This document shows, in pieces, positions 10,755 to 50,835 of a stretch of 64,000 nt of DNA (positions within the stretch are counted from its first letter, which is position 1; every line of letters begins with the position of its first letter). Origin of the DNA: an uncultured Bacilli bacterium (GTDB lineage Bacteria; Bacillota_I; Bacilli_A; RF39; UBA660); assembly GCA_934141535.1 (NCBI GenBank), contig CAKPCH010000006.1:3434-67433 (forward strand). Direction: 5' to 3'. The notes under the pieces are model-generated. The model had not been told where the DNA came from, did not search any database, and was given only the letters and a program-made list of their open reading frames with translations. The translations under genes were made by a program, and so were the position numbers.

Positions 10755-11288
10755 CTATTTTCTATAAAATATACTTAATACTTTAGCAAATTTATATAAA
10801 ATATCATTACTCTTATTTATAGCAAATCCTTTTTCTAAAGCCTTACCACCTATAGTAAGTGAAGAAATTAATCCAACAGTAAAAAGAGTTATCAAAAGAC
10901 TATTAAAACCTGTTATGGATGCTAATTTAATAGATATAACAGCACCTGCAGAACCTGATACAATTCCACATATATCGCCAACTACATCATTACAAAAACT
11001 AGATACCTTATCAGCATTCTTCTTTAATTTAATAGCAAGACTAGCACCTTTAATCTTATTTGCAGCCATAGCATGAAAAGGAGCCTCCTTAGCACTTGCT
11101 ACTGCAACACCAATCATATCAAAAATAACACCAATTAATATAAATGTAATAGCAAGTATTATACCAACAACTATATTTAAGTTAGGTATAACAGTTTCAG
11201 ATATAAAACTAAACATAATAGAAATAACAAACGCAAGTATTACTATTTTTATAACCCAATTATAATTAACACTATTTTTTTGCTTCAT
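10755..11288 (-). CDS. Hypothetical integral membrane protein
   Basis: 177 aa with 4-5 predicted TM helices and a Gly/Ala/Ser-rich hydrophobic segment (GDICGIVSGSAGAVISI). Confidence 0.45.
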   Translation of the reverse strand: MKQKNSVNYNWVIKIVILAFVISIMFSFISETVIPNLNIVVGIILAITFILIGVIFDMIGVAVASAKEAPFHAMAANKIKGASLAIKLKKNADKVSSFCNDVVGDICGIVSGSAGAVISIKLASITGFNSLLITLFTVGLISSLTIGGKALEKGFAINKSNDILYKFAKVLSIFYRK

Positions 11289-11457
11289 AAGCTACATCAC
11301 CTTTTTTATTATTTAATACTGTATCTTTCTGATACTTTAATCCAAATATTAATAAAATTGTAAATATTATTACAAGAATATATAAACCAATAACTATAAT
11401 ATAAGTTTTTGATTTACTCTCTTTATTAATTTCTAAAAACTCTTTATCTTCTTTCAT
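11272..11457 (-). CDS. Hypothetical small membrane protein
   Basis: 61-aa ORF with a single TM helix. Overlaps the downstream gene start by 17 nt, which suggests translational coupling. Confidence 0.3.
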   Translation of the reverse strand: MKEDKEFLEINKESKSKTYIIVIGLYILVIIFTILLIFGLKYQKDTVLNNKKGDVAYEAKK

Positions 11458-11522
11458 ATTATCACCACTATAATTTTAACATACTTTATTAAAATAAACA
11501 ATAAAAGAATCATTATGATTCT

Positions 11523-12770
11523 TTAATTTAAATAAGATATAAATTCAGCTAGAGTAGTACTAGAAAAAATAGTTTTTCTAGGTACTTTAAATTTATCTGT
11601 TTTATTAGGATATGCTCTACCATCTGTTGAATATTGACCAATAAATGCCATAGTAAATCCAGCTTTCTTTAATAAAGTTATAGCCCTTTCATTAAAGTCA
11701 AAGAATGGATATGCAAAATATTTACTACCTCCCATTTTATCTTGACTTGTTTTTAAGTCAGATAAAACTTGTTCTTCAGGTAAACAAAGAATACCTCCAC
11801 CTTGAGAACCATAACCTTTACATTCATATTGATTATGCATATTATCAGTATGAGATTCTACATCCATATAATTACTTTTTAAATTATTTGGATCTACCCA
11901 ACTAGTTATAACAAATATAGTCGCATTCACTTTATAAGCATCAAGTAAATCTAAAGCATATGGATCAAATATTGTTCCATCATCTATTGTTAATACTGCA
12001 CTCTTCTCTGGTATCTTAAGACTACCATCCAAATACATTTCTAATTCATTAAGTTTTAAAGTAAAATAATTATTTTCACTTAAATATTTAAGATGTGATT
12101 CAAATTGACTTAAACTTTGACAAATAATTTGATCACATTTATAAGTATTAGGATCATATATAAAATGATATAAAAGTGTTCTTATACTTGATTTATTTTT
12201 TAAATCAGTATTATGATTTTCATACTCTTCACTAACATTATCATGTTTTATATAAACTAATCTATCATTAAAAACAACACCATAATATTCATTATCTTTT
12301 ATTAAAACAGGAAAATCATATGATTTATTTATAGTATATAATATATTCTTATCCTCATCATAAAATGTAGTCATATCACTAGTTTTTATATTAATATTAA
12401 AAGGAATATAATTCTTATATCTATAACTGAAACTAAACTCTTTCATCTGTTCTACATCATTATATGATATATAAAATCCTAAATCCTTAATTAAAAAATA
12501 TTTAGTATTCTTATCTATATCTAAAGAGTCCAAATATAGATTTACATCTTTACTTATACTACCAATCTTTTTATATTCATTATCAACTAAATCATATAAA
12601 TCAGTCTCTTTAGTAGTCTTAACAAATTGATTATAATGACCTCTAATTTCACTTATTAATTTTTCTTCTTTTTTTATAGTCTCTTTTTCTTGATATTTAT
12701 AATATGATACAAAAGATATAACACCTATTATAAATATAATTAATACTATTACAAACACTTTTTTCTTCAT
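11523..12770 (-). CDS. Polysaccharide deacetylase family protein (NodB homology domain), membrane anchored
   Basis: 415 aa with an N-terminal TM helix. C-terminal NodB-like core (AVLTIDDGTIFDPYALDLLDAYKVNATIFVI...HTDNMH). Confidence 0.7.
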   Translation of the reverse strand: MKKKVFVIVLIIFIIGVISFVSYYKYQEKETIKKEEKLISEIRGHYNQFVKTTKETDLYDLVDNEYKKIGSISKDVNLYLDSLDIDKNTKYFLIKDLGFYISYNDVEQMKEFSFSYRYKNYIPFNINIKTSDMTTFYDEDKNILYTINKSYDFPVLIKDNEYYGVVFNDRLVYIKHDNVSEEYENHNTDLKNKSSIRTLLYHFIYDPNTYKCDQIICQSLSQFESHLKYLSENNYFTLKLNELEMYLDGSLKIPEKSAVLTIDDGTIFDPYALDLLDAYKVNATIFVITSWVDPNNLKSNYMDVESHTDNMHNQYECKGYGSQGGGILCLPEEQVLSDLKTSQDKMGGSKYFAYPFFDFNERAITLLKKAGFTMAFIGQYSTDGRAYPNKTDKFKVPRKTIFSSTTLAEFISYLN

Positions 12771-12866
12771 ATATTTTTCCTTCCTACTCTATATACTACA
12801 TTAAAATTATACTATAAATATTTATAAATTTAAATCCCTAATTTAATAAAAAAGAAATAGATTTTA

Positions 12867-15062
12867 CTATCTCTTATATTTATCTATAATATTTGTTATT
12901 TTATCATATTCTTTCATTAATTCTTCAAAATGATTATTTATATATTCTATATCATTTGCTTTACTTTTCATTTCTTGTTCATATGAAATCTCTGCTAATT
13001 CTTTAAACCCTAAATATTTACTATCACTCTTTAATGCATGTACATCTATCGCATAATCTTTCATATTCTCTTCTTCTTTATTTTTCTTTAATCTTGGTAT
13101 TCTTGTTTTATTCTCTTCTTTAAAGTATTCTAATGTTTCTTCATATGTTTTTATGTCTCCTAATAGTTCTAAACTATTTGTTATATCTATATTATTTTCT
13201 TTTAAATATTTTATCTTTGTTTCTTCACTATTCTCTTCTTTTTTATCTTCTTTTAATTCTTGTCCTTTTAAATATTTATTTAATACTTTATTTAATTCAT
13301 TCTTTTCTATTGGTTTACTTAAATAATCATTAAACCCTACTTCTATATATTTATTTGATACTCCACTCATCGCATCTGCTGTTAAAGCTATTACTGGTAT
13401 ATTAAATTCTTCTATTTTCTTTAATTCTTTTAATGTTTCTACTCCACTTAATTTTGGCATCATTATATCCATAAATATTATATCGTATTTATTATTTCCT
13501 TTTATTTTCTCTATACATTCATATCCACTTGATACTTGTTCTGTTTCTATTTTTCTTTCTTTTAATAATTTACTTGCTATCTTTAAATTTAAATAGTTAT
13601 CATCTACTACTAATGCTTTTGTATTTGGAAATTCTATTCTTTCTTTTATTTCTTCTTCTTTATTTATTCCTTTTTTATTTACTATTTTTTGACTTAGGAA
13701 TATTGTAAATTTGCTTCCTTTTCCATATGTTGAATCTACTACTATTTTTCCTCCCATCATACTTACTAAATTCTTTGTTATTGCTAGTCCTAATCCTGTT
13801 CCTTCTATTGTTGTATTTCTATCTTCTTCTAATCTATTAAACTTAGTAAATAATTTATCTATCTTATCACTTTTTATTCCTCTTCCTGTATCTGTTACTG
13901 ATATTACTAATTTACATATTTCTTTTTCATTTACACAACTTATTTTAAAATCTATATATCCTTTATCTGTATATTTTGCTGCATTTGTAAGTAGGTTTAA
14001 TATTACTTGTTGTACTTTTCCTTTATCTCCATATAATACACTTGGTAAATCTTTTGCAAAATCACATCTAAGTTCTATATCTTTTTCTCCTATTTTTATT
14101 TTTGTCATATTAACTAAATTAGTTAATATTTCACTTATATTATATTCACCTTCTACTAATTCCATTTTATTTGCTTCTATTTTACTTATATCTAGTATTC
14201 CATTTACTATCTCTAATAATGTATCTGAAGCACTTACTATATCACTAGCATTCTCTTTTGCTTCTTCTAATGTTTTAGAGTCTTCAATACATTCACTAAA
14301 TCCTTTAATAGCATTTAAAGGAGTACGTATTTCATGAGACATACTACTTAAGAAATCACTTTTAGCATTATTTGCCTTCTCTGCTGTATCACGGGCTAGT
14401 TCTAATTCTTGAATCATTTTTACATCTGGATTTTCTATTGTATGATACATCAGAGTTGTTATAAATGCTTCTGCTGTTGCGGTTAATAATAAACTTGGAT
14501 TTATTATTTGTATTGTCACAACACAAATGCCTAAAAATATAAAAGCAAACAATGGTATATACTTTTTATTTTTAAGGTTTTTAAAGTTGTATACCATATT
14601 AGCCAGGCAAAATAATATTAAAATTCCTGAAACTAAATATCCAAATTGAACACAGGGACCGTATGTATATAACATTACATTCCCGTCGTATTTAGGATAT
14701 ATCGGTAATATTAAAGTTGTACATACTAATATTAAGCAAATAATAATTACAGTTGCTTTATTAAGATTTGCAAATTTATTTTTTGATACATAATAAATAT
14801 ATATAGCAAAAACATATAACCATACTACAAAGTAAACCATGATTAATTTTAATGTTAATGTCTTTAAAATTTCATGTCCTACTAAATTTAAATTTATTAT
14901 AGTACTAATTATTTCAATAAATAAACCCAATAAATTTGTAATTAAAAGTATTGAATATATTTTTGTTTCTTCATTATCCACTCTTTTTCTAAAAAAATAC
15001 ATCATTGAAGTCATTAATACATAAAAAAAACTACATAAAGAAAATATCATATTACTACTCAT
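12867..15062 (-). CDS. Hybrid sensor histidine kinase with receiver and C-terminal HPt domain
   Basis: 731 aa with a multi-TM N-terminal sensor of about 7 helices. H-box SHEIRTPLNAI, HATPase_c (DTGRGI), receiver (ALVVDDNYLN...DIMMPKLSG) and an HPt-like C-terminus (DVHALKSDSKYLG). Confidence 0.85.
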   Translation of the reverse strand: MSSNMIFSLCSFFYVLMTSMMYFFRKRVDNEETKIYSILLITNLLGLFIEIISTIINLNLVGHEILKTLTLKLIMVYFVVWLYVFAIYIYYVSKNKFANLNKATVIIICLILVCTTLILPIYPKYDGNVMLYTYGPCVQFGYLVSGILILFCLANMVYNFKNLKNKKYIPLFAFIFLGICVVTIQIINPSLLLTATAEAFITTLMYHTIENPDVKMIQELELARDTAEKANNAKSDFLSSMSHEIRTPLNAIKGFSECIEDSKTLEEAKENASDIVSASDTLLEIVNGILDISKIEANKMELVEGEYNISEILTNLVNMTKIKIGEKDIELRCDFAKDLPSVLYGDKGKVQQVILNLLTNAAKYTDKGYIDFKISCVNEKEICKLVISVTDTGRGIKSDKIDKLFTKFNRLEEDRNTTIEGTGLGLAITKNLVSMMGGKIVVDSTYGKGSKFTIFLSQKIVNKKGINKEEEIKERIEFPNTKALVVDDNYLNLKIASKLLKERKIETEQVSSGYECIEKIKGNNKYDIIFMDIMMPKLSGVETLKELKKIEEFNIPVIALTADAMSGVSNKYIEVGFNDYLSKPIEKNELNKVLNKYLKGQELKEDKKEENSEETKIKYLKENNIDITNSLELLGDIKTYEETLEYFKEENKTRIPRLKKNKEEENMKDYAIDVHALKSDSKYLGFKELAEISYEQEMKSKANDIEYINNHFEELMKEYDKITNIIDKYKR

Positions 15063-15151
15063 ACATAAATACCTCCTACTTTATACTAATTACATTATAA
15101 CATAAAAAAATGTTAAAATTATATTTTTTTAACATTTTATATACTACTACT

Positions 15152-16930
15152 CTATTTTTTGATAAGTACTTTCCCCTTAAGTAATTGATAATTTTGAGTT
15201 TCTAATTCTCGATAATCGATTTTTCCAACCTGAGTCAATGGTAACTTATCTTGAATTAAATATTCTCTTGGTAAGTATCTATCACCTAGTTCTGATTTAC
15301 ACTGCTTTTCTATATCAAGTAATATTTGTGTAGAATCTACTAATGTATCTTTTTTTAATACTATATTAGCAATAGGTATTGCTCCTCTTTCATTTTCATC
15401 ATCAAATATACCTACAACACAACAGTCCTCAACATTTGGATTTTTCTTTATTATATTTTCTATTTTAAATGGAGATACTTTAATTCCATCATATCTTACT
15501 ATTATTCTTTTTAATCTACCAGTTACAAAGACTACACCGTCTTTATTTATTTTTCCTAAATCACCTGTGTGCAACCACAATTTACCATCAGAATGAACTC
15601 TTAATGCTTCACTAGTAGCTAAACTATTATTATAATATTCTTTCATTAATGTTGGTCCATATATGCAAATTTCGCCTTCTTCATCATATTTTAATTCTTT
15701 ATCAGCTTCATTATCATATATACAAAAAGTCATTTGTGGTAATGGAATACCAACACTATTTTCAACATAACATTGAGGTAGGTTTGTACTATCTGCACAT
15801 CCACCCTCTGTTTGTCCATATCCTTCAATTACTTTGTATTGACAATTATGCTGTCTTAATATTTCATTTACTTCGTTTTTATGAGCGGCATCCATCTTAT
15901 CGCTTCCACTAGCAAGTGTTTTTAAATAGGATACATCTTTTATGGTGTCTTTTTTTTCTCTAAAATTATTCCAATCTGCAGGACCTGCTACTACATGATT
16001 TATTTTATACTTCATAACATTCTTAGCGAACTTAGAAGGTTGATAATCTGGTAACATAACTATTCTCATCTTTAACATAAATGGCAAATGTGTAGCCATA
16101 ACTATGTTATAGGCTAAAAATGGAGGAACCTGATTCAAAAATTTATCATTTGGTTTAAACTCTAAGCCACAATTTTCATACTGCATATACATTGCATTAA
16201 AGTTTTCATTAGTCAAAACTACACCCTTTGGAATTCCTGTTGTACCACTTGTGTGTAATATAATAATGCCATTATTTTCAGAATATTCATCTTTGAAATA
16301 TTTTAAACTTTTCTTACCACATTTTTCAAAATCAAACCACAATTCATGCTTGTCATCAGCAGGAATATTTTTTTTGTTTTTTAATTTATATAGTTGTTTT
16401 AATACTGGTGGTAATGAATCTGATGGTGAAGCCACTATAACTTTTTTCACAAATGTTTTACTTAAAACCTCATCTACATTATCTATAAAAACGTCAGATG
16501 CTACTAAAAGTTGTGAATTAGCTTCATTTAAATATCTAATTAAATCTTCTCCACGAGCAGTCAAATCTATAGAATTAACCATCGCACCTATTTTATTTAG
16601 TGCATAGATACATATAGTATTTTCTGGAATATTAGGAAGTGCTAAAGAAACTACATCTCCTTTTTTAACACCTTTTTCTAAAAATGCATTTGCCACAGTA
16701 TCAATTTTTCCTAAAAGTTTTCCATATGAAATTCTAGTACCAAAATAATATAATGCTTCATTATCAGAATTTTCTAAACACACTTTTTTTAAAGAATCAT
16801 ATATTGTCATTCTTGGAATTTCAAAGTTGTCTAAACTTTTATAATATTTTAACCATGGCTTATCAATTGAAGCAAATCCCGTCATTTTTTTACTTTCTTC
16901 TCTATCTATTTTATAAGTTCTATTTTCCAT
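15152..16930 (-). CDS. AMP-dependent synthetase/ligase (acyl-CoA synthetase family)
   Basis: AMP-binding motif ILHTSGTTGIPKGV and a conserved C-terminal lid. The longest ORF starts at TTG (16942). An in-frame ATG at 16930 (MENRTYK) has a GGGGGA RBS 5 nt upstream and is preferred. Confidence 0.8.
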   Translation of the reverse strand: MENRTYKIDREESKKMTGFASIDKPWLKYYKSLDNFEIPRMTIYDSLKKVCLENSDNEALYYFGTRISYGKLLGKIDTVANAFLEKGVKKGDVVSLALPNIPENTICIYALNKIGAMVNSIDLTARGEDLIRYLNEANSQLLVASDVFIDNVDEVLSKTFVKKVIVASPSDSLPPVLKQLYKLKNKKNIPADDKHELWFDFEKCGKKSLKYFKDEYSENNGIIILHTSGTTGIPKGVVLTNENFNAMYMQYENCGLEFKPNDKFLNQVPPFLAYNIVMATHLPFMLKMRIVMLPDYQPSKFAKNVMKYKINHVVAGPADWNNFREKKDTIKDVSYLKTLASGSDKMDAAHKNEVNEILRQHNCQYKVIEGYGQTEGGCADSTNLPQCYVENSVGIPLPQMTFCIYDNEADKELKYDEEGEICIYGPTLMKEYYNNSLATSEALRVHSDGKLWLHTGDLGKINKDGVVFVTGRLKRIIVRYDGIKVSPFKIENIIKKNPNVEDCCVVGIFDDENERGAIPIANIVLKKDTLVDSTQILLDIEKQCKSELGDRYLPREYLIQDKLPLTQVGKIDYRELETQNYQLLKGKVLIKK

Positions 16931-16958
16931 AATATCCCCCAATCTTAATACTATTTAA

Positions 16959-16988
16959 ATTATACTATATTTAAATAAATTAAGTCAA
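16959..16988 (-). promoter_or_regulatory. Sigma-A-like promoter for the acyl-CoA ligase gene
   Basis: Minus strand: TTGACT, 18-nt spacer, TATAAT. The predicted TSS is about 20 nt upstream of the ATG at 16930 and includes the SD. Confidence 0.45.
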
Positions 16989-17063
16989 TCAATTTAATTG
17001 TGCAAATATTATACTTTTTTAATTATTTTTTTGGTAAAAATTGTACGAAATGCCCATTTTTAT

Positions 17064-17095
17064 GTATGAAAAAAGCAAGTATAAATTTACTTGCT
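17064..17095 (-). terminator. Rho-independent terminator ending the minus-strand non-coding transcript
   Basis: Perfect 9-bp stem AAGCAAGTA/TACTTGCTT with a 6-nt loop, followed on the minus strand by TTTTTT. Confidence 0.55.
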
Positions 17096-17684
17096 TTTAA
17101 TGGCGTTAATACAGTTAATTTTACGTCTTAGGTCAAGTTGGATTTCCCTAGATTAATACTTATCGTTACCAATAAGCGGTTCCCCTTTAAACAATCCAGT
17201 ATATAGTTACCTAATATACTACTTGATTACCACTTAGTACGCACTGTAATCCCATACTAACAACATTCTAGAAGATTTCCTCACCAATTAATTTATTATT
17301 AATTCTTTTTTGCAAACGATATTTCAAATTGTACTTTATGTAAGTTCTAGCTATAAACTTACTTAAAATATTAATTCAATTATCCCTATCATTCACTCAA
17401 GACAAGCTACGCTACCCATAACTTTCGCCACAAGGTAGGTTTAATCCTATTTCGTACTAAGTCCATCAGTATTCACGTATAGGCAAAACACGATAATAGG
17501 TCTCCACGGATGGTGGGTCATTTACATATGCCATTATGGATGCCCAACTATCCTCATTTCCAGCACTCACCCCAATCTGGGCGAAAGAAGCAAGCACAAG
17601 AAGTTTCACAGGTATGCTCTTTAACGGATTTTTAGCCCCGTCTTCGTAATAAATCGATTGACTAGAATAATGTGCCATCGATAT
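17096..17684 (-). ncRNA. Candidate structured non-coding RNA of unknown class (about 600 nt)
   Basis: Region between a consensus promoter and an intrinsic terminator. No ORF of 60 aa or more in any frame except one 77-aa ORF whose start lies upstream of the predicted TSS. GC content is about 40-45 percent against about 25 percent in the flanks. It contains GNRA-like loops (GCGAAAG, GGAAAUG). Confidence 0.4.
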
Positions 17685-17689
17685 CAACA

Positions 17690-17718
17690 ATTTTAGCAAA
17701 TTTTTAGATATTTGTCAA
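17690..17718 (-). promoter_or_regulatory. Consensus sigma-A promoter driving the candidate ncRNA
   Basis: Minus strand: TTGACA (17718-17713), a 17-nt spacer, then TAAAAT (17695-17690). The TSS is predicted near 17684. Confidence 0.5.
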
Positions 17719-17752: not shown

Positions 17753-18547
17753 TTACTTTTTCCATTCACTAGCCTTTATCCAGTTTTCATATTTATATAT
17801 ATGTTCAAGTAAAAGACAAGCCCACTTTTGTGATGGATAATATTTTTTAATTGCTCGTCTTTTATTTTGTACTACATCATCTGATAATTTTTCAAGAGAA
17901 TTATTTTTAAGTTCATCTTTTGTATAATACTTACCAAAATAATATAATGAATTACTCTCATTATAATCTTTAGCTAAATCAGTTATCATAACACTTGTAG
18001 CAATATGGTGCCAATGACCATATTCACCATCTAAATTATGTGTAACTATCTTTTTCCAATGTTTAAAACCAACTATTTCCTTAAGAGATCTAGAAATTTT
18101 ATATTCTATATCTCCTCCCCAGTCACTAGCATTTCCATTTGCATCTACATCAACATAATTTAACATTAAATATTTTTGATTATATGCTTCCATAATAGAT
18201 GAAAATTCTAAAGCACGTGCTTCATCACTTCCACAAGTAACACATACTACTAAATACTTGTCTTCCATTAAATGTGCTCCACCAAATATAAATTCATCAT
18301 CTGGATGAGCAACTACCATTAAATTATCTACATCAGTCAAATCCATATTTTTTAATTCTTCATTATCAATATTAATTCTCTTCTCTTTTAATTCCTGAAT
18401 TAATTTTTCTTCTTCTATTTCTAATTTATTTATTTTTTCATTTAGATTATTATTTTCTATTGTTTGAATAATTAAAACGAAAAGTAAAATTCCAACAAAA
18501 GATATTATAGTATAACTAATAAAATCTACTATGTACTTTCTATTCAT
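17753..18547 (-). CDS. PIG-L family (LmbE-like) deacetylase, membrane anchored
   Basis: 264 aa with an N-terminal TM helix and coiled coil, followed by the LmbE motif VVAHPDDEFIFGG and a His-rich zinc site. Confidence 0.7.
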   Translation of the reverse strand: MNRKYIVDFISYTIISFVGILLFVLIIQTIENNNLNEKINKLEIEEEKLIQELKEKRINIDNEELKNMDLTDVDNLMVVAHPDDEFIFGGAHLMEDKYLVVCVTCGSDEARALEFSSIMEAYNQKYLMLNYVDVDANGNASDWGGDIEYKISRSLKEIVGFKHWKKIVTHNLDGEYGHWHHIATSVMITDLAKDYNESNSLYYFGKYYTKDELKNNSLEKLSDDVVQNKRRAIKKYYPSQKWACLLLEHIYKYENWIKASEWKK

Positions 18548-19022
18548 TGTTAATCTCCTTATCTACTAAATCTATCATATTGGAAGTATTACTTTTAAAT
18601 TTTTTAGGTTTAAATTTAGTGGTTTGTTCTATTAACTTATCAATATCATTAAAATTATCTAATTTTAATATATATCCTTCTTTTTCAAAATTATCTATTA
18701 TTTGTAATTGATGATCATTTACATGTTCATTATATTTACTTAAACGTGCTGCAGCTATTACTTTTTTATTATTCTTTAATCCTGTAATTATAGATCCTAC
18801 ACCGCCATGAGTTATTAAAATATCACATTTTTTAATCAAATCATCAAACTCATCCATTGGTATTAAATCAAATATTTTCATACTCTTTGATTTAAAATCA
18901 GAAGAACACCCAGCTTGTACAATAACTTCATCTCTTATTAGATGTTGATTTATTTTATCTTCAAGTGTTTCTAATAATCTATAAAACTTTTTATCTTGTG
19001 TACCAAGTGTTACTAAAATCAT
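18540..19022 (-). CDS. Alg13-like glycosyltransferase subunit (GT28 C-terminal domain; Cps14G/EpsF-like)
   Basis: The probable true start is the internal Met (MILVTLGTQDKKFY), which is typical of Alg13-like proteins. ITHGGVGSI motif. Meets the upstream gene at an ATGA-type junction. Confidence 0.6.
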   Translation of the reverse strand: MILVTLGTQDKKFYRLLETLEDKINQHLIRDEVIVQAGCSSDFKSKSMKIFDLIPMDEFDDLIKKCDILITHGGVGSIITGLKNNKKVIAAARLSKYNEHVNDHQLQIIDNFEKEGYILKLDNFNDIDKLIEQTTKFKPKKFKSNTSNMIDLVDKEINNE

Positions 19023-19900
19023 TAAAAAATCCAACCTCCATATACTGCTTTTGGATATAGTTCTAACATGCTTTCCCATTGAACTATAAATGTATCTGCT
19101 ATAGGATATACTAATTTACCAGCTACAGTCTTAGTAGAACTATTAGCAAACGTTTCTATAAATATAACTTTACTACCAAATAAATGTGCTATATAACACA
19201 TAGGTACTGCTGTATGTGTACCTGTTGTTACTACTACATCTGGTCTAATTCTTAAATATAATATAAAAGATTTTATTATATTAAATGAAAATATGAAAAA
19301 ATAAGTAAATAAATTTTTCTTTGTACCATATACTAAATAACTAACATTATTATATTTATCTTTTAAATTCTTATTAGATTTAGTTTTTTCAGTAATTAAA
19401 TAACTATCATATTTTTCTATTAAAGGTTTTAATTGTAATAATTCATTTAAGTGTCCACCAGTACTTGATATAAATATAACTCTTTTTTTATCTCTTTTAC
19501 TAAATACTAAGAATTTAGAAAATAAATAATTTAATACAAGGACAATAACTTGAACTATTAGTTTAGATATTTTATCATTTACACCAAATAGTGTAACTAA
19601 TATAAACATAGTTAACATATCTATTATAAGTGTTGAAAGACGTGCGAATAAAAATGAAATAAATTTATTCTTTTCAGAATAAGAAAATACAAATTTCTTA
19701 TTAGCAAAATAAGCAAAAATAACAGCACATATAAATGATATAATGTTTGCTAATTGTAATTGTAAAGCATTATTTGGATTTAAAAATGTTTTAACACATA
19801 AATAATATGTACCCAAACTTACAACTGTTGTAAATCCACCAACTATTACATATTTAATTAATTCTTCATATTTTTTATATAATTTAATTATTCTTTTCAT
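19022..19900 (-). CDS. GtrA-family membrane domain fused to Alg14-like glycosyltransferase anchor subunit
   Basis: 292 aa. The N-terminal 130 aa carry 4 TM helices of GtrA type (IKYVIVGGFTTVVSLGTYYL). The C-terminal half is Alg14-like (IFISSTGGHLNELLQL...VVVTTGTHTAVPM). Confidence 0.55.
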   Translation of the reverse strand: MKRIIKLYKKYEELIKYVIVGGFTTVVSLGTYYLCVKTFLNPNNALQLQLANIISFICAVIFAYFANKKFVFSYSEKNKFISFLFARLSTLIIDMLTMFILVTLFGVNDKISKLIVQVIVLVLNYLFSKFLVFSKRDKKRVIFISSTGGHLNELLQLKPLIEKYDSYLITEKTKSNKNLKDKYNNVSYLVYGTKKNLFTYFFIFSFNIIKSFILYLRIRPDVVVTTGTHTAVPMCYIAHLFGSKVIFIETFANSSTKTVAGKLVYPIADTFIVQWESMLELYPKAVYGGWIF

Positions 19901-20804
19901 TACTTATAACTTCCTTAACTATATATATTGGTCTATTTCTACTTTCAGTATAATTTCTATATATATACTCTCCTAATATTCCAAGTACTATATAATTAAT
20001 ACCAAATAAGAATATTATTAATATTATAAGAAAATAAAATTGATTAGCTGATATAATAAAACCTAATATTAACAACATTAATGATACTAATATATTAAAT
20101 ATACCTAATTTAAATATTATATTAAGTGGTTCTTTAGAAAAAGATAATATTCCACTTACCGCATATTTAAATAACCCTTTTGTACTCCAAGATGTTTTTC
20201 CATTTATACGCTTTTCTGGAATATAAGGTAAATAATATGTATTAAAACCTATCCAAGAAAATATTCCTTTTGAAAATCTATCATGTTCACTTAAAGTTAA
20301 TACTGTATCTATTACTTTTCTATTTAATAATCTAAAATCACTAGCACCGTTTTTTAATTTCATACCAGTAGAATTAGACATGATTTTATAAAATTGAGAT
20401 TTAAAAAATGAAATTATTTTATTTTCAATTCTTTTTTCTTGATAATATGTAACAATATCTATATTACTATCATTTTCCATTACCTTGATCATATCAAGAA
20501 CTAAATGAGGAGGTTGTTGCATATCTGCATCTATTATAACGCATGCATCCCCACTACATTCCTTTAATCCAGCATATATTCCAGCTTCTTTTCCAAAGTT
20601 TCTAGAAAAATTTATTATCTTTATTTCAAAAATTTTCTCTTTTAATAAAGATTTTAACTCTTCTAATGTATTATCTTTTGAACCATCATTTATAAATATT
20701 AATTCTACTTTATATTTATCTTTAAATGATTTAACCACATCATCATAAAATAACTTAATATTTTTACTTTCATTATAACAAGGTACTATAAATGAAACTT
20801 TCAT
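19884..20804 (-). CDS. GT2 polyprenol-phosphate hexose synthase (GtrB/Dpm1-like) with C-terminal TM helices
   Basis: 306 aa with a GT-A fold (KVSFIVPCYNE, DADMQQP, DxD) and two C-terminal TM helices, as in GtrB/CsbB. Confidence 0.75.
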   Translation of the reverse strand: MKVSFIVPCYNESKNIKLFYDDVVKSFKDKYKVELIFINDGSKDNTLEELKSLLKEKIFEIKIINFSRNFGKEAGIYAGLKECSGDACVIIDADMQQPPHLVLDMIKVMENDSNIDIVTYYQEKRIENKIISFFKSQFYKIMSNSTGMKLKNGASDFRLLNRKVIDTVLTLSEHDRFSKGIFSWIGFNTYYLPYIPEKRINGKTSWSTKGLFKYAVSGILSFSKEPLNIIFKLGIFNILVSLMLLILGFIISANQFYFLIILIIFLFGINYIVLGILGEYIYRNYTESRNRPIYIVKEVISNEKNN

Positions 20805-22309
20805 AAATCTCTACTCCTTACTAATTCTACTTTACTTCCAACAGGTATTTTATAATATAATTCAAATGTATAAAGGTGCCAATTATTAGAGAATTCATCC
20901 TTAGTTATTATTAAATCCATTTGTGGATTAGCATTCCATAAATATCTATTTGGAAGTTGTATTAATTTAATAGTTTCTTCTTTATTATTTAATTGTTCTT
21001 TAATATAATCTGCTCTTCTTATGAATAAGATATAACAAAATGAATAAAAAATCAAGAAGAAAGTTACTATGGCTCCTAAAACAAATTTATTAAATCTTAA
21101 AAATTTTACATTTTCTAATATTTTTAAATTTAGAGAATCTATTATTAGGAATGCGCAAATAAATAACATGATATTTGAAAGATATGAAGTTCTTCCACCA
21201 CATAAAGGAGATAACATCATAGCTCCATTATTTATCAAGGCTATTAGGAAGAAAAATAATATTTTCTTTTTATCAACTTTAGAATACTTTATTACAAGTG
21301 CTACTAACAATATTAAAAATAATACCCAATAAATACATAAATACCACCTATGACAATCTAACAATATTCCAAAATATTTTGGACTTCTTCTAAAAACTAC
21401 ATAATATAAATTAGTGAAAGAAGTTAATACAGGTATTATACTTGAAAATAATATTAATATATATTTTTTTATTCCTTTTATATTATCTTTTATTAATACT
21501 ATAGATATAAATACTAAAATAAGAGTTAAATAACTATTTTTTACAAATACTTCATTTAATTGTCTTGGGAATGTAGAAATAATTTTTTCAATTAAAGTCA
21601 TATTGTTAAATGCATCCATAGTATTTAATCTATTAAGAGTACCTGGACTATTTAACATTAAATAAAGGCCTATTAAAGAAGTAAACATAGAAATAAGCAT
21701 TAATATATTTATCTTCTTATTTTTAATATATTGATATACTATTACTAATATATAAACAGTTATTATACCAACAGTTACATTTTCTACAAACATTGAATTT
21801 ATAAAACTTAATATAGGTATTATTATATAAAATATTTTGTTATATTTTATATCTGAATCATTAAATATATTTCTATTTATATATATTAAAAATATTAAAA
21901 ATATCATAGGTATAAAATAAGTAGTATTACCAGTTATCCATACATATACTTGAGAAAAAGTTTCTTCATCTACTAATAATAATGATTCTAATATAAATAC
22001 TAGAAAGAATGATTTCTTTTTTGAATTAACCATTTTATTTATAAAATAGTATAAGAATGTCATACCACATGCATTAACTATTACCCAAATAGGTTTATAA
22101 TATACAAATACTAAGTCAAATACTCTACTAAAAAATCTTCCTTCAAATGAGTTATAACTATCAACAGCTATCTTAATCATTGTACTAATCTTTCCATCAT
22201 AAAGTATATTATTCCAATCATCACCAGTATATGGAACTAAAAAACCTAATATAAGGAAAAAGATAAATACTAATGCACAATAAAATTTTATGTCTTTCCC
22301 TTTTTTCAC
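20801..22309 (-). CDS. Polytopic membrane protein, candidate GT-C glycosyltransferase or polymerase
   Basis: 502 aa with about 12 TM helices. Lies directly upstream of the GtrB-like and GtrA-like genes and is translationally coupled (4-nt overlap). Confidence 0.5.
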   Translation of the reverse strand: MKKGKDIKFYCALVFIFFLILGFLVPYTGDDWNNILYDGKISTMIKIAVDSYNSFEGRFFSRVFDLVFVYYKPIWVIVNACGMTFLYYFINKMVNSKKKSFFLVFILESLLLVDEETFSQVYVWITGNTTYFIPMIFLIFLIYINRNIFNDSDIKYNKIFYIIIPILSFINSMFVENVTVGIITVYILVIVYQYIKNKKINILMLISMFTSLIGLYLMLNSPGTLNRLNTMDAFNNMTLIEKIISTFPRQLNEVFVKNSYLTLILVFISIVLIKDNIKGIKKYILILFSSIIPVLTSFTNLYYVVFRRSPKYFGILLDCHRWYLCIYWVLFLILLVALVIKYSKVDKKKILFFFLIALINNGAMMLSPLCGGRTSYLSNIMLFICAFLIIDSLNLKILENVKFLRFNKFVLGAIVTFFLIFYSFCYILFIRRADYIKEQLNNKEETIKLIQLPNRYLWNANPQMDLIITKDEFSNNWHLYTFELYYKIPVGSKVELVRSRDL

Positions 22310-22330
22310 AAAACTTCACCTCTTACTAAA

Positions 22331-24832
22331 CTACTTTATATTTTCTAATTTATAAATAATATTAGCTATTCTTTTATTAAAATGTTTTAAATATAAATTT
22401 TTAAATGTAGGAGCTTTTAAATATTTATTATTTTTATAATTTGGAAAATTTAAATTAATTTTATTTATTACTAAATCTACACCCTTACAAAATTCTTGTT
22501 TATCTTTAAAATGCGCTAAACGTTTAACAAATGTAGCAAACAAATATCTAACACAAGAATATTCTAATTCATCTTTATATAATTCATATAATTTATTATC
22601 TTTATACCATTTTATTATTCCATCAAAATTTGAAACATAATCATATAATCTCTTATCTACTGTATGTGTTATAGCGCCCTCTCTTTGAACATAATTTATT
22701 AAATAATCATCTATTGTTCCTATTGAATTAATAGATGGATATAATCTATAAATAAATTCAACATCCTCAAACCATACTTTATCTTTAAAATTTATATCAT
22801 CTTTAAATAATCTTTTATTATATAATTTATTCCAAACAGCAGGATATAAATACGTCATAGCTTTTTTTACTTCATCTTTAGATTTAATATCTTTTTCTAA
22901 ATTGGTTAAAGTAGGAACTATTTTCTTATCATATATATAATTAGTATTACAAACTACCATATCAAAATCTTCTTCTATAGCTTTATTATATAATTTTTCA
23001 TACATATCATAATTAACATAATCATCACTATCTAAGAATGCTATATAATCTCCTGTTGCCTTAGTAAGTCCATAATTTCTAGCTGAAGATAAACCACCAT
23101 TTTCTTTTTTATATGCTTTAATATTTTTATATTTTTTAGCATACCTATCTATTATATCTTGACTAGAATCTTTAGTACCATCATTTACAACTATTATTTC
23201 TATATCACTTAATGTTTGATTAACTAAACTATCTAAACATTTATCTATATATTTTTCTACATTATAAACTGGTACAATAACACTAATTTTAGGATTCTTT
23301 GATTTTTTTAACATTTTAACCTCTTTAACTTTCTCTTTATTTACTACATATTTTAATTTATCATGTCTAACAAAATGAAGTAAGTATCCACTTATAAATG
23401 AAAGTGGTATTGTTACTATTAACTCATCTAATACATGTCCACTAAAATAAGATATACCTAAACATACATATATTGATATAACAAGCATAGTAGTTTTTAA
23501 TCTTAATCTATTTTTAGATAACATATATAAACCTGAATAAGTAGCAATTATTATATAAGGGCCAAATAAAAGTATTATACCTACTATTCCTATAGTATAA
23601 TAATGAACAGTAAAATCACTTTCTATATATATTTGTGAATTTCTATATCTAGAATATCCTTCACCAAAATATTTATCAAATTTATTATTATTTAATGAAT
23701 ATATTTTCTTTGTCATAAGACTTTCTAATTTACGATTGCCTCCTCTTTCACTATATGGAAGCTTCATAACATCTATCCAAAAGTCAATATCTTTAGTATA
23801 TGGATATAATTCATAAATATATGTTTTAGGTATTGAATAATAATCAAAGTACTTCTCTATAAATTCTTTTTTCTCTTCTTTAGTTTCTAATTTATATAAA
23901 GTTTCATTAATTACATCTTTATCTTTCATACCATTTTCTATTTTTTCATAGTCTGTATGAGTATATCTTAATATTAAAGGCGAATTGAGTGTTATAAGTA
24001 TTAAAAGTGAAAAACTAATTATATACATAAATACTTTTTTAAATGTTATTTCTACTTTATTCTTATCTATAATAGCAAAGAATATCCAAGCAATAAACAT
24101 AACAACACCAACTATAGCCCATCCATAAACTGCTACTCTAGTACCTATCATGATCATTGAAAGACATAAAGTAAGTGAAGATATATATGCTTTTTTACAA
24201 GAAAATCTTACAGCATAATATATATTTATAGGAAGTATTAATATAGCAAGAGCACTTATCTGATTAGCCATATAAAAATATCCTTTGCTTGCTAACTGTT
24301 CAAAAGTATAATTATCATTTAAAAACCAATCAAATATATTACCAGATATAAACTTAGGTTCACCATATGAAACAAGTGATATTTTAAATATATTTGTTAT
24401 AATTATTTCAAGTGAAAATATTAAAGATAATGTAATTATACTCTTCTTAAATGTTTCTTCTGTTATTTTTGCCTTATATACTATATATATTAACATAAGA
24501 GGTAATAAAAGTCTTATGTAATAAAATGCTTCTGTTATAAATGAAAAAGTCATATTTTCATTTATATTAATATTAAATTTTAGTGCATTTATCACATGTA
24601 GTATTAAGTATAAGAAAAGTGCTACTAAATAACCTACTATATACCAATGCTTCTTATCTTCCCTAGTTTTTATTAATGATATAGCAAAGAATATAAATAT
24701 AAATACTATTCTTATTATTGTAGAAGGAGAAAACTTAAAAATATTTGTTACTGCTTCACTATATAATAAATAAAAATCTAAAAATGGTTGTATTATTAAA
24801 AATATAAAAAGTGCTTTATCTATTTTTTTCAT
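22331..24832 (-). CDS. Fusion protein: Wzy/O-antigen-ligase-like polytopic membrane domain plus C-terminal GT2 glycosyltransferase
   Basis: 833 aa. Residues 1-500 are multi-TM. From about residue 510 there is a GT2 core (KISVIVPVYNVEKYIDKCLDSLVNQT...DSDD). Confidence 0.65.
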   Translation of the reverse strand: MKKIDKALFIFLIIQPFLDFYLLYSEAVTNIFKFSPSTIIRIVFIFIFFAISLIKTREDKKHWYIVGYLVALFLYLILHVINALKFNININENMTFSFITEAFYYIRLLLPLMLIYIVYKAKITEETFKKSIITLSLIFSLEIIITNIFKISLVSYGEPKFISGNIFDWFLNDNYTFEQLASKGYFYMANQISALAILILPINIYYAVRFSCKKAYISSLTLCLSMIMIGTRVAVYGWAIVGVVMFIAWIFFAIIDKNKVEITFKKVFMYIISFSLLILITLNSPLILRYTHTDYEKIENGMKDKDVINETLYKLETKEEKKEFIEKYFDYYSIPKTYIYELYPYTKDIDFWIDVMKLPYSERGGNRKLESLMTKKIYSLNNNKFDKYFGEGYSRYRNSQIYIESDFTVHYYTIGIVGIILLFGPYIIIATYSGLYMLSKNRLRLKTTMLVISIYVCLGISYFSGHVLDELIVTIPLSFISGYLLHFVRHDKLKYVVNKEKVKEVKMLKKSKNPKISVIVPVYNVEKYIDKCLDSLVNQTLSDIEIIVVNDGTKDSSQDIIDRYAKKYKNIKAYKKENGGLSSARNYGLTKATGDYIAFLDSDDYVNYDMYEKLYNKAIEEDFDMVVCNTNYIYDKKIVPTLTNLEKDIKSKDEVKKAMTYLYPAVWNKLYNKRLFKDDINFKDKVWFEDVEFIYRLYPSINSIGTIDDYLINYVQREGAITHTVDKRLYDYVSNFDGIIKWYKDNKLYELYKDELEYSCVRYLFATFVKRLAHFKDKQEFCKGVDLVINKINLNFPNYKNNKYLKAPTFKNLYLKHFNKRIANIIYKLENIK

Positions 24833-24840
24833 GTTATCTC

Positions 24841-26001
24841 CTATCTAAACAATTCATATAATTGTTCTAATATTTTTTCATTTTCTTTATTATAATCATA
24901 ATTTAAAAGATTATCTGTATATTTAGTTATAAGAGCTTTATTTGTAATAATATTCTTTAATCCTTTATAAAGCCCATCTATACTATTATCAACTATAAGT
25001 CCATTATAATCATTTTTTATAAGTTCACTTGTAGCAGAATTAGCAGTAGCTAATACAGGTACTTTAAGTGTCATAGCCTCTACTATTACAAGTCCAAAAG
25101 GCTCGTAAACTGATGACAATATAAACATATCTGAATTATTTATATACTGATAAGGATTATCTGTATATCCCATTAACTTAAAACAAAACTCTAAATTATT
25201 ATCTAATATTTTTTTAAGTAATATATCCTTCATAGGACCATCACCATATATTTTAAACTCTACATTATTAAGTAACTTTTCTTTATTAAGCATACTAACA
25301 GCATCTATTAATCTATCATATCCCTTCATAGAATGAAGTCTACCTACTGATATAAATTTAAGCTTTTTATCATCTTGTTTATTTTTTGTACTTGCTAATG
25401 TCTTAATTTTTTCAACATCTACAAAATTATTAATTACACATGTAATATTTTCTAAATGATATATGTCATTAAAATCATCCATTACACCTTTTGATACTGC
25501 TACTATTTTATTGAATTTAGAAAGTACATTTCTAAATAACTTGTCATACTTTGCATTACAATTAGCAATACTATAATTGTAGTGTAGCCAATGTATTTTA
25601 TTTTTACAATCGCCAAATTCAACAAAAAGTGCTGTAAAACCATCTTTAAATGCTATTTCTGTATCATAATATTTCTTTAATATTTTTCTTCTTTCTTTTT
25701 TAATTCTATATTTAATTAAACCAGTTTTCATAGATAACACTAATCTTATTTTTCTAAATATTAAAGAAATATTTTTACTTTTTAAAACTTCACCAATTGT
25801 ATAATCAACAGCACTAAAATATTTAGTACCATATATAACATTAACACTCTTAGGTAAATTATTAAGTCTTGTTCCATTATTATGTAAAACAAGTACATCT
25901 ACATTTAATTTACTATAATCAAGTCTATTTAATATATCTTCAAGAAGAATGGAAACTCCTCCCATTCTTCTTTCATCTACTACAAATAAAATATTTTTCA
26001 A
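24841..26001 (-). CDS. GT4 family glycosyltransferase
   Basis: 386 aa with a GT-B fold and a C-terminal EX7E-like region (SSVYEPFGLVIVEAM). Confidence 0.75.
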   Translation of the reverse strand: MKNILFVVDERRMGGVSILLEDILNRLDYSKLNVDVLVLHNNGTRLNNLPKSVNVIYGTKYFSAVDYTIGEVLKSKNISLIFRKIRLVLSMKTGLIKYRIKKERRKILKKYYDTEIAFKDGFTALFVEFGDCKNKIHWLHYNYSIANCNAKYDKLFRNVLSKFNKIVAVSKGVMDDFNDIYHLENITCVINNFVDVEKIKTLASTKNKQDDKKLKFISVGRLHSMKGYDRLIDAVSMLNKEKLLNNVEFKIYGDGPMKDILLKKILDNNLEFCFKLMGYTDNPYQYINNSDMFILSSVYEPFGLVIVEAMTLKVPVLATANSATSELIKNDYNGLIVDNSIDGLYKGLKNIITNKALITKYTDNLLNYDYNKENEKILEQLYELFR

Positions 26002-43305: not shown

Positions 43306-43617
43306 TTAATTTAGAATGTTTTTAATATCAATTTTTTGATATAAAACTCTAACAACAGTAATTATTTTATCATTTTCATTTATAGTGTAAAACATAAGAA
43401 AATTTTTAACCTTAACACTTCTATAAACGTTTTTTAATTTTGATGTTGAACTATATTCAGATGAACTATAAGGAAACTCTAAGATACTACGTGCACTATT
43501 AATAAAGCACTTAGATAAATTAATTGCCGCAGTACTATTTTTTAGATTATTAGAAATATAATATATAATATCATCCATATCTTTTTTTGCTATTGGCAAA
43601 AATTCTAATCTATACAT
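43306..43617 (-). CDS. Type II toxin, RelE/ParE family
   Basis: 103 aa. RelE/ParE fold features (YRLEFLPIAKKDMDDI...KNFLMFYTINENDKIITVVRVL). Sits directly downstream of a small antitoxin-like gene, 2 nt apart. Confidence 0.65.
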   Translation of the reverse strand: MYRLEFLPIAKKDMDDIIYYISNNLKNSTAAINLSKCFINSARSILEFPYSSSEYSSTSKLKNVYRSVKVKNFLMFYTINENDKIITVVRVLYQKIDIKNILN

Positions 43618-43618
43618 G

Positions 43619-46975: not shown

Positions 46976-47374
46976 TGCTTTTGAGTTTAGAAAATTACAA
47001 CTTCGTATTATCAGTAAAAAGTGTAATCATCTACCATTGAAGTTTTCTTTCTTCTTACAATTGTAACGTTTAGAGTTGGCAGAATAACCTATAACACTTT
47101 AGTGAATGTAGTCATATAACATAAAATGTGTTATACAACTTTTTCACTAAGTGTTTATTAAAGATATTTTTTAATAGTTATTTTTTTATTATATTTACTC
47201 AATTATTTTATTTAATAATTGATATAATTTCTTAACTATTTTTTATATCATCTCTAAACTATATTAAGTATACTATATAAATTTATTTTTGTCAACATTT
47301 TTTTATCTAAAACTGATAATAAGCCATTTCAGACTACAAGCAACCTAAAATGGCTTATTTTTAATATAATTGTA

Positions 47375-50082: not shown

Positions 50083-50105
50083 TAAAGAAGATACTATATA
50101 AGTAT

Positions 50106-50411: not shown

Positions 50412-50439
50412 TATTATTCTCCCTTAACTCTTATTAAAC

Positions 50440-50817: not shown

Positions 50818-50835
50818 ATTTTTCCTCCTCTTTTA

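What the first reader, a model, noticed from the sequence alone, without database searches (positions are those of the whole stretch)
17064..17718. About 620-nt GC-enriched transcript with consensus promoter and terminator but no ORF: candidate large structured ncRNA
A TTGACA, 17-nt spacer, TAAAAT promoter on the minus strand is followed by about 620 nt at about 40-45 percent GC against about 25 percent in the flanks. The stretch is dense in stop codons in all frames and ends at a perfect 9-bp hairpin plus U-tract. The downstream acyl-CoA ligase has its own promoter, so this is an independent unit. I found no RNase P motif (GGAAAGUCCGG), tmRNA tag or 3' end, SRP domain IV or group II domain V. 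It may be an OLE-, ROOL- or GOLLD-class RNA or a new RNA. The alternative is a nearly leaderless 70-aa peptide (MAHYSSQ...) with a 370-nt structured 3' UTR.
Basis: seen in the sequence. Interest (0 to 1): 0.65.

Follow-up and report, generated by a model that had tools for sequence, protein, structure and literature searches.

The report
OLE RNA gene, a known family
The flagged stretch is a normal, full-length copy of OLE RNA, a well-described large structured bacterial RNA that works at the cell membrane with the protein OapA, so it is a correct spot but not a new kind of RNA.

Summary
On the minus strand there is a near-consensus promoter (TTGACA, 17 nt, TGcTAAAAT), about 615 nt with no conserved ORF, and a strong terminator hairpin. 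Rfam identifies it as OLE RNA (RF01071): window 17084-17694, 377.7 bits against a cut-off of 50, E 2e-107, model positions 1-616 of 616.

The OLE structure is kept in 40 homologues. 89% of cells are paired, against 37-44% when partners are slid. 118 of 151 pairs show compensatory changes.

The 70-aa ORF (MAHYSS...) is chance. In most homologues the same frame stops after 6-18 codons, and its ATG lies inside the covarying end-closing helix.

The partner gene oapA is present at 10755-11288 (-), with the invariant DxxxD motif. Relatives of this protein sit downstream of an OLE gene in 75 of 80 genomes. Here it lies 5.8 kb downstream instead of about 100 nt, because an acyl-CoA ligase, a hybrid histidine kinase, a polysaccharide deacetylase and a small membrane ORF lie in between.

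The host is an uncultured low-GC Bacilli lineage from the human gut. Its whole clade lacks the small P11 hairpin.

Verdict: an already known RNA family, with ordinary lineage-specific variation. Interest is low.

The parts
17690..17718 (-). Sigma-70-type promoter of the ole gene. -35 TTGACA at 17718-17713, 17-nt spacer, extended -10 TGcTAAAAT at 17698-17690. The inferred transcription start is near 17684-17682.
   Evidence: 11 of 12 positions, TG present. The same TTGACA-17-TGnTAWAAT sits at the same position in L002, L005, L006, L007 and L019. The start site is inferred from spacing, not measured.
17084..17694 (-). OLE RNA (Rfam RF01071), full-length type. By my mapping of Rfam helices to the published stem names, it has P1, P2, P5-P10 and P12-P15. 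The P11 hairpin (model positions 424-435) is absent.
   Evidence: 377.7 bits, cut-off 50, E 2.1e-107, model 1-616 of 616; 141 of 153 modelled pairs are canonical in this copy; covariation in 41 sequences.
17674..17678 (-). 5' strand of the end-closing helix P1 (AUGGC). It contains the ATG of the spurious 70-aa ORF.
   Evidence: it pairs with GCCAU at 17104-17100. The helix covaries: GUGGU/ACCAC in Clostridia, GUGGA/UCCAC in L074, UGGGU/ACCCA in L059.
17100..17104 (-). 3' strand of helix P1 (GCCAU).
17623..17642 (-). Hairpin with the invariant CUAAAAAU loop. This is the region P2, where OapA binding was mapped in H. halodurans.
   Evidence: loop invariant in 41 sequences. helix 1: 96% paired, 4 of 6 pairs compensatory. 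The OapA site is from PMC9723947.
17557..17603 (-). P5 hairpin with a GCCCA loop. It is flanked by the conserved J4a/5 (UGUGAAAC) that forms the kink-turn bound by OapC in other species.
   Evidence: helix 2: 91% paired, 12 of 20 pairs compensatory. The kink-turn assignment is from PMC9723947 and PMC12286853 and was not tested here.
17508..17553 (-). P6 with the invariant AAUGGCAU loop region, followed by the conserved J6/7 (GUGGAGACC).
   Evidence: helices 3-4.
17446..17500 (-). P7. Its apical part carries a clade-conserved motif, GCCUAUAC, a small variable hairpin, then UGAYGGAC.
   Evidence: helix 5: 83% paired, 15 of 17 pairs compensatory.
17412..17438 (-). P8, closed by a GAAA tetraloop.
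   Evidence: helix 6: 98% paired, 8 of 11 pairs compensatory.
17303..17403 (-). P9 domain (P9 to P9.3). Loop L9.3 carries the palindrome UAGCUA at 17353-17348.
   Evidence: helices 7-11. AGCU in this clade, GGCC in others. These are the palindromes reported to covary in the intermolecular kissing loop of the OLE dimer (PMC12286853).
17105..17262 (-). 3' domain, P12 to P15. P13 (17219-17199) has a GUAA tetraloop (17210-17207) and a bulged U (17214). P14.1 has a GUAA loop (17169-17166). GGGAAAUCC forms P15.
   Evidence: helices 14-20: 86-100% paired. The GNRA loop plus a one-nucleotide bulge is the OapB recognition site (PMC7936274).
17069..17098 (-). Intrinsic terminator: an 11-bp stem, a 6-nt loop and a U tract.
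   Evidence: -11.7 kcal/mol, z -6.0. Equivalent hairpins followed by T runs occur after OLE in relatives.
10755..11288 (-). oapA, encoding the membrane protein partner of OLE RNA (177 aa). It lies 5.8 kb downstream of ole on the same strand.
   Evidence: the DVVGD (D101xxxD105) motif; weak CNNM match, E 5.7e-4; weak match to CorB 7M1U; relatives of this protein lie downstream of an OLE gene in 75 of 80 genomes. FCNDVxGD is invariant. OapA features are from PMC11332333.
11272..11457 (-). Small single-pass membrane ORF (61 aa) that overlaps the oapA start by 17 nt. It is specific to this clade.
   Evidence: homologues lie directly upstream of oapA in 8 closest loci (hmmsearch E 1e-17 to 1e-28) and in none of the other 72. 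It is called as a gene in metagenome assemblies. Any role in the OLE complex is an inference only.

Best explanation
This is the ole gene, encoding OLE (ornate, large, extremophilic) RNA, in an uncultured low-GC Bacilli bacterium from the human gut.

Shown here:
- The gene has its own strong promoter and its own intrinsic terminator, giving an RNA of about 615 nt.
- Its sequence and structure match the OLE family model from end to end.
- The helices are maintained by compensatory changes.
- The genome also encodes OapA, the membrane protein that defines the OLE ribonucleoprotein.

Inferred from published work on Halalkalibacterium halodurans and Clostridium acetobutylicum OLE RNA:
- The RNA folds into a 5' multi-helix domain and a 3' four-way-junction domain.
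- It pairs with a second copy through the palindromic L9.3 loop (UAGCUA here) and other bridges.
- OapA dimers bind it and hold it at the cell membrane.
- The resulting particle helps the cell cope with stresses such as alcohols, cold, excess Mg2+ and poor carbon sources.

OapA is a distant relative of CNNM/MpfA Mg2+ transporters. The most likely mechanism is therefore that the RNA acts as a membrane-bound scaffold or sensor that controls or complements an OapA-mediated ion or homeostasis function. The exact chemistry remains unknown for the whole family.
For: Rfam match:
- RF01071, 377.7 bits against a cut-off of 50, E 2.1e-107, model 1-616 of 616, with no competing family.
- Rfam-confirmed OLE RNAs of relatives score 394-408 bits in the same clade and 518-539 bits in Clostridium and Thermosediminibacter.

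Structure:
- 141 of 153 modelled pairs are canonical in this copy.
- 89.3% of cells are paired, against 37-44% with slid partners. 118 of 151 pairs have changes on both sides. 0 of 500 shuffles reach any measure.
- the end-closing helix covaries.

Transcription unit:
- promoter and terminator are present and conserved in relatives.

OapA:
- OapA with an invariant DxxxD motif. 75 of 80 loci that encode its relatives have OLE upstream on the same strand, with a median gap of 100 nt.

Origin:
- the same locus occurs in human gut metagenome assemblies, with no gene called in the OLE gap.

Literature on how the complex works: PMC9723947, PMC7936274, PMC11332333, PMC12286853, PMC12265935.
Against: - No expression data were available, so the transcript ends are inferred.
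- The P11 hairpin is missing.
- The bit score is lower than for cultured Clostridia.
- No OapB or OapC gene was recognised in the 64-kb window. This says nothing about the rest of the genome.
- None of these points argues against family membership.
Confidence: 0.97

Rival explanations
1. The unit is a small protein gene: a nearly leaderless 70-aa peptide (MAHYSSQ...) followed by a long structured 3' UTR.
For: An ATG-started 70-codon ORF (17678-17466) exists on the transcribed strand.
Against: - In 40 homologues the same frame is closed after 6-18 codons in most, and the start codon is often absent or non-canonical.
- The conserved 'MAHYSS' only reflects the invariant RNA block UGGCACAUUAUUCUAGUC.
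- The ATG sits in the covarying P1 helix.
- Substitutions follow base-pairing, not codons.
- No gene is called here in metagenome assemblies.
Confidence: 0.01
2. The element is a cis-regulatory leader, such as a riboswitch or attenuator, that controls the downstream acyl-CoA ligase gene.
For: It lies upstream of, and on the same strand as, the AMP-binding enzyme gene (15152-16930). It ends in a terminator, as attenuators do.
Against: - The ligase has its own promoter-like site after the terminator (16988-16959).
- Homologous RNAs lie upstream of quite different genes: oapA, a deacetylase or the small membrane ORF.
- At E below 1e-10 the ligase matches only 1 of the 80 related loci, and in none of the 17 loci whose layout was read does it lie next to OLE.
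- The RNA matches a free-standing RNA gene family.
Confidence: 0.01
3. It is a decaying OLE remnant that has lost its function after being separated from oapA.
For: - oapA is 5.8 kb away rather than adjacent.
- P11 is missing.
- The Rfam score is about 150 bits below that of cultured Clostridia.
- Defective ole genes have been reported in rare organisms that lack OapA (PMC11332333).
Against: - OapA is intact, with all its invariant residues.
- The whole clade shares the P11 loss and the lower score.
- 92% of pairs are canonical in this copy.
- All the invariant sequence blocks are kept.
- The promoter and terminator are near consensus and conserved.
- The lower score is as expected for an AT-rich genome scored against a GC-rich model.
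Confidence: 0.02

Closest known systems
OLE RNA (Rfam RF01071), 'full-length' type as defined in PMC11332333. The reference members are from Halalkalibacterium halodurans and Clostridium acetobutylicum.
   Same: - End-to-end match to the family model.
- All major stems and the invariant joining regions are present.
- P13 has a GNRA loop with a one-nucleotide bulge.
- The L9.3 loop is palindromic.
- The host is in Bacillota and is an anaerobe-associated gut organism.
- oapA is on the same strand downstream.
   Different: - oapA is 5.8 kb away instead of directly adjacent, with four ORFs in between.
- The P11 hairpin is absent, a trait shared by the whole uncultured Bacilli clade.
- L9.3 carries AGCU rather than GGCC.
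- The gene stands alone with its own promoter and terminator, next to a glycosyltransferase cluster. From memory, the H. halodurans gene lies in an isoprenoid and nucleic-acid metabolism operon.
OLE variant 1 (TANB77-type) and variant 2 (RF39-type), PMC11332333
   Same: The host is an uncultured, low-GC gut organism. The closest relatives are labelled Bacilli, Tenericutes or Mollicutes.
   Different: - P7 and P8 are present, so it is not variant 2.
- The P13 GNRA loop and bulge, and a full-length P9, are present, so it is not variant 1.
   Same: They are large, highly structured, non-coding RNAs that assemble into multimers.
   Different: No match to either family at the gathering threshold anywhere in the window. 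They have unrelated sequences and structures, and they form nanocages rather than dimers (PMC12286853).

Membership tests
OLE RNA (RF01071) | Covariance-model match above the curated gathering score, over the whole model | tested here: met
   377.7 bits against 50, E 2.1e-107, model 1-616 of 616, not truncated.
OLE RNA (RF01071) | Conserved multi-stem secondary structure supported by covariation | tested here: met
   89.3% of cells paired, 118 of 151 pairs with compensatory change, 0 of 500 shuffles as high, and slid controls at 37-44%. P1 covaries.
OLE RNA (RF01071) | Highly conserved sequence blocks in joining regions and loops (UAUUCUAGUC, CUAAAAAU, GCCCAG, AAUGGCAU, GUGGAGACC, GUAGC, UGCAAAA, ACUAAGUGG, UUAAAGGGGAACC, GACCUAAG) | tested here: met
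   these positions are invariant or nearly so in 41 sequences and are all present in the window copy.
OLE RNA (RF01071) | Co-occurrence with oapA, normally in tandem directly downstream | tested here: met
   oapA is at 10755-11288 on the same strand. Co-occurrence is met. Direct adjacency is not: the gap is 5.8 kb, against a median of 100 nt in 75 loci.
OLE RNA (RF01071) | Host within Bacillota | tested here: met
   the closest OapA relatives (59-68% identity) are uncultured Bacilli, Tenericutes or Mollicutes gut MAGs; an identical locus occurs on human gut metagenome contigs. The exact order was not determined.
OLE RNA (RF01071) | [quoted passage not shown] | tested here: met
   GUAUA-U-UAG GUAA CUA UAUAC at 17219-17199. 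Binding itself cannot be tested here. No OapB gene was seen in the window.
OLE RNA (RF01071) | Kink-turn at the base of P5 for OapC (PMC9723947, PMC12286853) | tested here: inconclusive
   The conserved J4a/5 (CCUGUGAAAC) and J6/7 (GUGGAGACC) nucleotides are present. I could not verify the kink-turn geometry or pairing register from the text alone.
OLE RNA (RF01071) | Palindromic L9.3 loop that forms the dimer kissing contact (PMC12286853) | tested here: met
   UAGCUA at 17353-17348. The clade has AGCU where others have GGCC, which matches the covariation reported in the paper. Dimerisation itself cannot be tested here.
OLE RNA (RF01071) | Membrane-localised ribonucleoprotein needed for tolerance of alcohol, cold, Mg2+ and poor carbon sources | not testable with these tools
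   Known only from experiments in H. halodurans (PMC9723947, PMC10898510).
OapA (OLE-associated protein A) | Small multi-pass membrane protein with a CNNM-like fold and a DxxxD motif, encoded with ole (PMC11332333) | tested here: met
   177 aa with D101-V-V-G-D105. CNNM E 5.7e-4, below the Pfam cut-off, as expected for a distant relative; the best PDB match is CorB 7M1U (E 0.48), the structure the paper overlays on OapA. FCNDVxGD is invariant in 12 proteins. OLE lies upstream in 75 of 80 loci. NCBIfam has no model for it.
ROOL / GOLLD RNA | Covariance-model match above the gathering score | tested here: not met
   the only gathering-level matches in the window are OLE and one PGK motif.

The most novel reading that the evidence does not exclude
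In this gut Bacilli lineage the OLE particle may have a different make-up and a different job.
- ole has been uncoupled from oapA.
- ole sits at the end of a conserved cell-envelope glycan cluster (GtrA/Alg14-like, Alg13-like, LmbE-like, then a polysaccharide deacetylase).
- oapA has acquired a clade-specific, translationally coupled small membrane protein (11272-11457).

That small protein could be a new lineage-specific component of the OLE complex. If so, it would tie the complex to envelope polysaccharide synthesis, a link to cell-wall biology that PMC11332333 only hints at.
Probability: 0.1. Interest if true: 0.4.

Novelty: already known. Interest (0 to 1): 0.12.

Why it matters
It matters mainly as annotation. 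A gap that gene callers leave empty is filled with a known RNA gene, and the unannotated 177-aa membrane protein 5.8 kb away can be named OapA.

It also shows that a reader working from sequence alone can pick out a large structured RNA from its promoter, terminator, GC content and lack of an ORF.

For OLE biology it adds only small points:
- ole and oapA can be separated by several kilobases while both stay intact.
- The P11 hairpin is dispensable in a whole clade.
- The L9.3 palindrome switches to AGCU in this clade, as the dimer model predicts.

Tried and rejected
- NCBIfam scan of the OapA candidate and the 61-aa ORF gave no family. Pfam gave only a sub-threshold CNNM hit. The PDB sequence search gave only a marginal CorB hit. 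OapA identity therefore rests on the motif and on synteny, not on a named model.
- The pattern scanner did not report the terminator. Folding the region directly showed it.
- I looked for OapB, OapC or bS21 genes among the small ORFs of the window, with Pfam and with a concatenated-ORF search of the PDB. Nothing was found. This is uninformative for the rest of the genome.
- I considered that the ligase, kinase and deacetylase genes between ole and oapA might be a conserved functional module. Only the deacetylase recurs in relatives. At E below 1e-10 the histidine kinase has no counterpart, and the ligase matches only 1 of the 80 loci. I rejected the idea.
- I could not place the organism in a named order. 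Record titles say only Bacilli, Tenericutes or Mollicutes.
- I did not build my own covariance model. OLE is longer than the 400-column limit, and the Rfam model was decisive.

Full report
**1. The observation**

- The promoter is TTGACA (17718-17713), a 17-nt spacer, then TAAAAT (17695-17690) preceded by TG. It matches 11 of 12 positions and is the best promoter-like site in the region.
- The 3' end is an 11-bp perfect hairpin (17098-17071) that runs into a T tract. Its energy is -11.7 kcal/mol, z = -6.0, and none of 200 shuffles folds as well.
- GC enrichment is real but uneven. The RNA is 35% GC overall, 41.7% in the 5' half and 28.8% in the 3' half. The window is 24.4%, and the two flanking spacers are 15.5% and 17%.
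- Five reading frames are closed.
- The acyl-CoA ligase gene downstream (15152-16930; AMP-binding domain) has its own promoter-like site at 16988-16959.

**2. What it is**

A scan of the whole window against Rfam 15 gives one overwhelming hit: OLE RNA, RF01071. It covers window 17084-17694 on the minus strand at 377.7 bits (gathering score 50), E 2.1e-107, spanning model positions 1-616 of 616.
- There is no ROOL or GOLLD hit.
- Projected on this copy, 141 of 153 modelled pairs are canonical.
- The only sizeable departures from the model are a deletion of the small hairpin at model positions 424-435 (P11 by my mapping) and an 11-nt insertion in the P7 loop.

**3. Independent support from relatives**

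The 177-aa ORF at 10755-11288 (-) gave a weak CNNM hit and has the sequence DVVGD. PMC11332333 describes OapA, the membrane partner of OLE RNA, as a distant CNNM relative marked by a DxxxD motif.

Using this protein to fetch related loci from reference genomes returned 80 loci.
- An nhmmer search with the window RNA found an OLE homologue in 75 of the 80. It was always upstream of the oapA-like gene and on the same strand, with a median gap of 100 nt.
- Seven of these loci were checked with Rfam, and all are OLE. They score 394-408 bits in the same uncultured Bacilli clade and 518-539 bits in Clostridium and Thermosediminibacter.
- FCNDVxGD is invariant in 12 OapA proteins.

The window therefore holds both defining genes of the OLE ribonucleoprotein.

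**4. Structure**

I aligned the window RNA with 40 full-length homologues and counted the Rfam structure on the alignment.
- 89.3% of cells are paired, against 37-44% when the 3' partners are slid by 1-3 columns.
- 118 of 151 pairs have changes on both sides.
- None of 500 shuffles reaches any measure.

The end-closing helix is not annotated in the Rfam model. It also covaries: AUGGC/GCCAU here, GUGGU/ACCAC in Clostridia, GUGGA/UCCAC and UGGGU/ACCCA elsewhere.

Features tied to known partners are present.
- P13 has a GUAA tetraloop and a single bulged U, which is the OapB site of PMC7936274.
- The conserved J4a/5 and J6/7 nucleotides that form the OapC kink-turn (PMC9723947, PMC12286853) are kept. 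I could not verify their geometry.
- Loop L9.3 carries the palindrome UAGCUA. The clade has AGCU where others have GGCC. This is the covariation that PMC12286853 uses as evidence for the intermolecular kissing loop of the OLE dimer.
- P7 and P8 are present. By the scheme of PMC11332333 this is therefore a 'full-length' OLE, not variant 1 or variant 2.

**5. Rivals**

*Peptide.* In the 40 homologues the corresponding frame stops after 6-18 codons in most, and the start is often TTG, GTG or absent. The shared 'MAHYSS' is simply the invariant RNA block read as codons. The ATG lies in helix P1.

*Cis-regulatory leader for the ligase.* This does not fit. The ligase has its own promoter. At E below 1e-10 it matches only 1 of the 80 related loci, and in none of the 17 loci whose layout was read does it lie next to OLE.

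*Decaying remnant.* This does not fit either.
- OapA is intact.
- The P11 loss and the lower bit score are shared by the whole clade.
- The promoter and terminator are conserved in the closest relatives.

**6. Context and what is slightly unusual**

The literature says ole and oapA almost always lie in tandem (PMC9723947). Here they are 5.8 kb apart. Four ORFs lie between them:
- the acyl-CoA ligase,
- a hybrid histidine kinase (12867-15062),
- a polysaccharide deacetylase (11523-12770),
- a 61-aa single-pass membrane ORF (11272-11457) that overlaps the oapA start.

In the closest relatives the gene order is glycosyltransferases (GT2, GtrA/Alg14-like, Alg13-like, sometimes LmbE-like), then OLE, then nothing or a few genes, then oapA, then a pilin-like gene. 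The gaps range from 0.37 to 3.8 kb, and the deacetylase recurs. In 59 of 75 loci overall the gap is 200 nt or less.

The small membrane ORF is found directly upstream of oapA in eight of the closest loci and nowhere else. It is the only element here without a published counterpart that I know of.

An identical OapA, with the same gene order and no gene called in the OLE gap, occurs on human gut metagenome contigs, including a 124.5-kb Hadza contig. The host is therefore an uncultured gut member of Bacilli.

**7. How it most likely works**

Shown here: an independent RNA gene with a strong promoter and terminator, a conserved OLE fold, and an intact oapA.

Inferred from published experiments on other species:
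- The RNA dimerises, is bound by OapA dimers and is held at the membrane. OapB and OapC may also bind if the genome has them.
- The particle supports growth under alcohol, cold, Mg2+ and carbon-source stress (PMC9723947, PMC10898510, PMC11332333, PMC12286853, PMC12265935).
- OapA is related to Mg2+ transporters of the CNNM/MpfA type. The most likely role is therefore a membrane-bound RNA scaffold or sensor coupled to an OapA-dependent homeostasis function.

The biochemical activity of OLE RNA is still unknown for the whole family. Nothing in this window changes that.

**8. Verdict**

The element belongs to an already known and well-studied RNA family, and such gut lineages were covered by a GTDB-wide survey of OLE RNAs (PMC11332333). 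The separation from oapA, the clade-wide loss of P11 and the small oapA-coupled membrane ORF are modest lineage-specific details. Interest is low.

Noticed in passing
window 11272-11457 (-); L002 9707-9964, L005 9595-9951, L006 9380-9961, L007 9581-9973, L014 5943-6416, L015 5948-6415, L019 9790-10023, L026 9743-9979: A small single-pass membrane protein gene lies directly upstream of oapA, overlapping its start by 17 nt in the window. It occurs only in the closest uncultured Bacilli clade. It has a conserved N-terminal and transmembrane part (…YIIVIxLYIxVxxLxxLLxxGxKxQKD…) and a variable low-complexity tail. It has no Pfam or NCBIfam family and could be a lineage-specific partner of OapA.
   Followed up: partly
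window 11289-17083 (-): ole and oapA are separated by 5.8 kb holding an acyl-CoA ligase, a hybrid histidine kinase, a polysaccharide deacetylase and the small membrane ORF. Relatives show gaps from 0.1 to 3.8 kb. In three loci (L014, L015, L026) no OLE lies within 6-10 kb upstream of oapA.
   Followed up: yes
window 17263-17271 (-); alignment A1 columns 485-496: The small hairpin at Rfam model positions 424-435 (P11 by my mapping) is absent from every OLE of the uncultured Bacilli clade. Among the aligned sequences it is present only in about half a dozen Clostridia-type sequences (L039, L043, L050, L072, L079).
   Followed up: partly
window 17455-17490 (-), apical part of P7: A conserved motif, GCCUAUAC, a short variable hairpin, then UGAYGGAC. 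It is shared by the window clade and by two distant Clostridia-type sequences (L059, L063), and it is replaced by a short stem in several others. Its role is unknown. L7 takes part in a dimer bridge in the published cryo-EM structure.
   Followed up: no
window 47001-47090 (-): A PGK RNA motif (RF03040) at 64.8 bits against a cut-off of 50.8. It lies upstream of a gene for an HD-domain plus AAA_28 protein (45549-46913), not a phosphoglycerate kinase.
   Followed up: no
window 49800-60220 (-): A probable type VII secretion-like locus. It has a 1528-aa FtsK/SpoIIIE-family ATPase (EssC-like, 55634-60220), a DUF4176 protein (50106-50411) and several unannotated ORFs.
   Followed up: no
window 43306-43951 (-): A ParE toxin / RelB antitoxin pair.
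   Followed up: no
window 17753-26001 (-): A long cell-envelope glycan cluster lies directly upstream of ole. It includes an LmbE/PIG-L-like gene (weak match), Alg13-like (GT28 C-terminal), GtrA plus Alg14-like, GT2, DUF6056, an O-antigen-ligase-like domain fused to GT2, and GT4. The Alg13-like and Alg14-like genes lie upstream of OLE in six of the closest related loci (L005, L006, L007, L008, L019, L074).
   Followed up: partly
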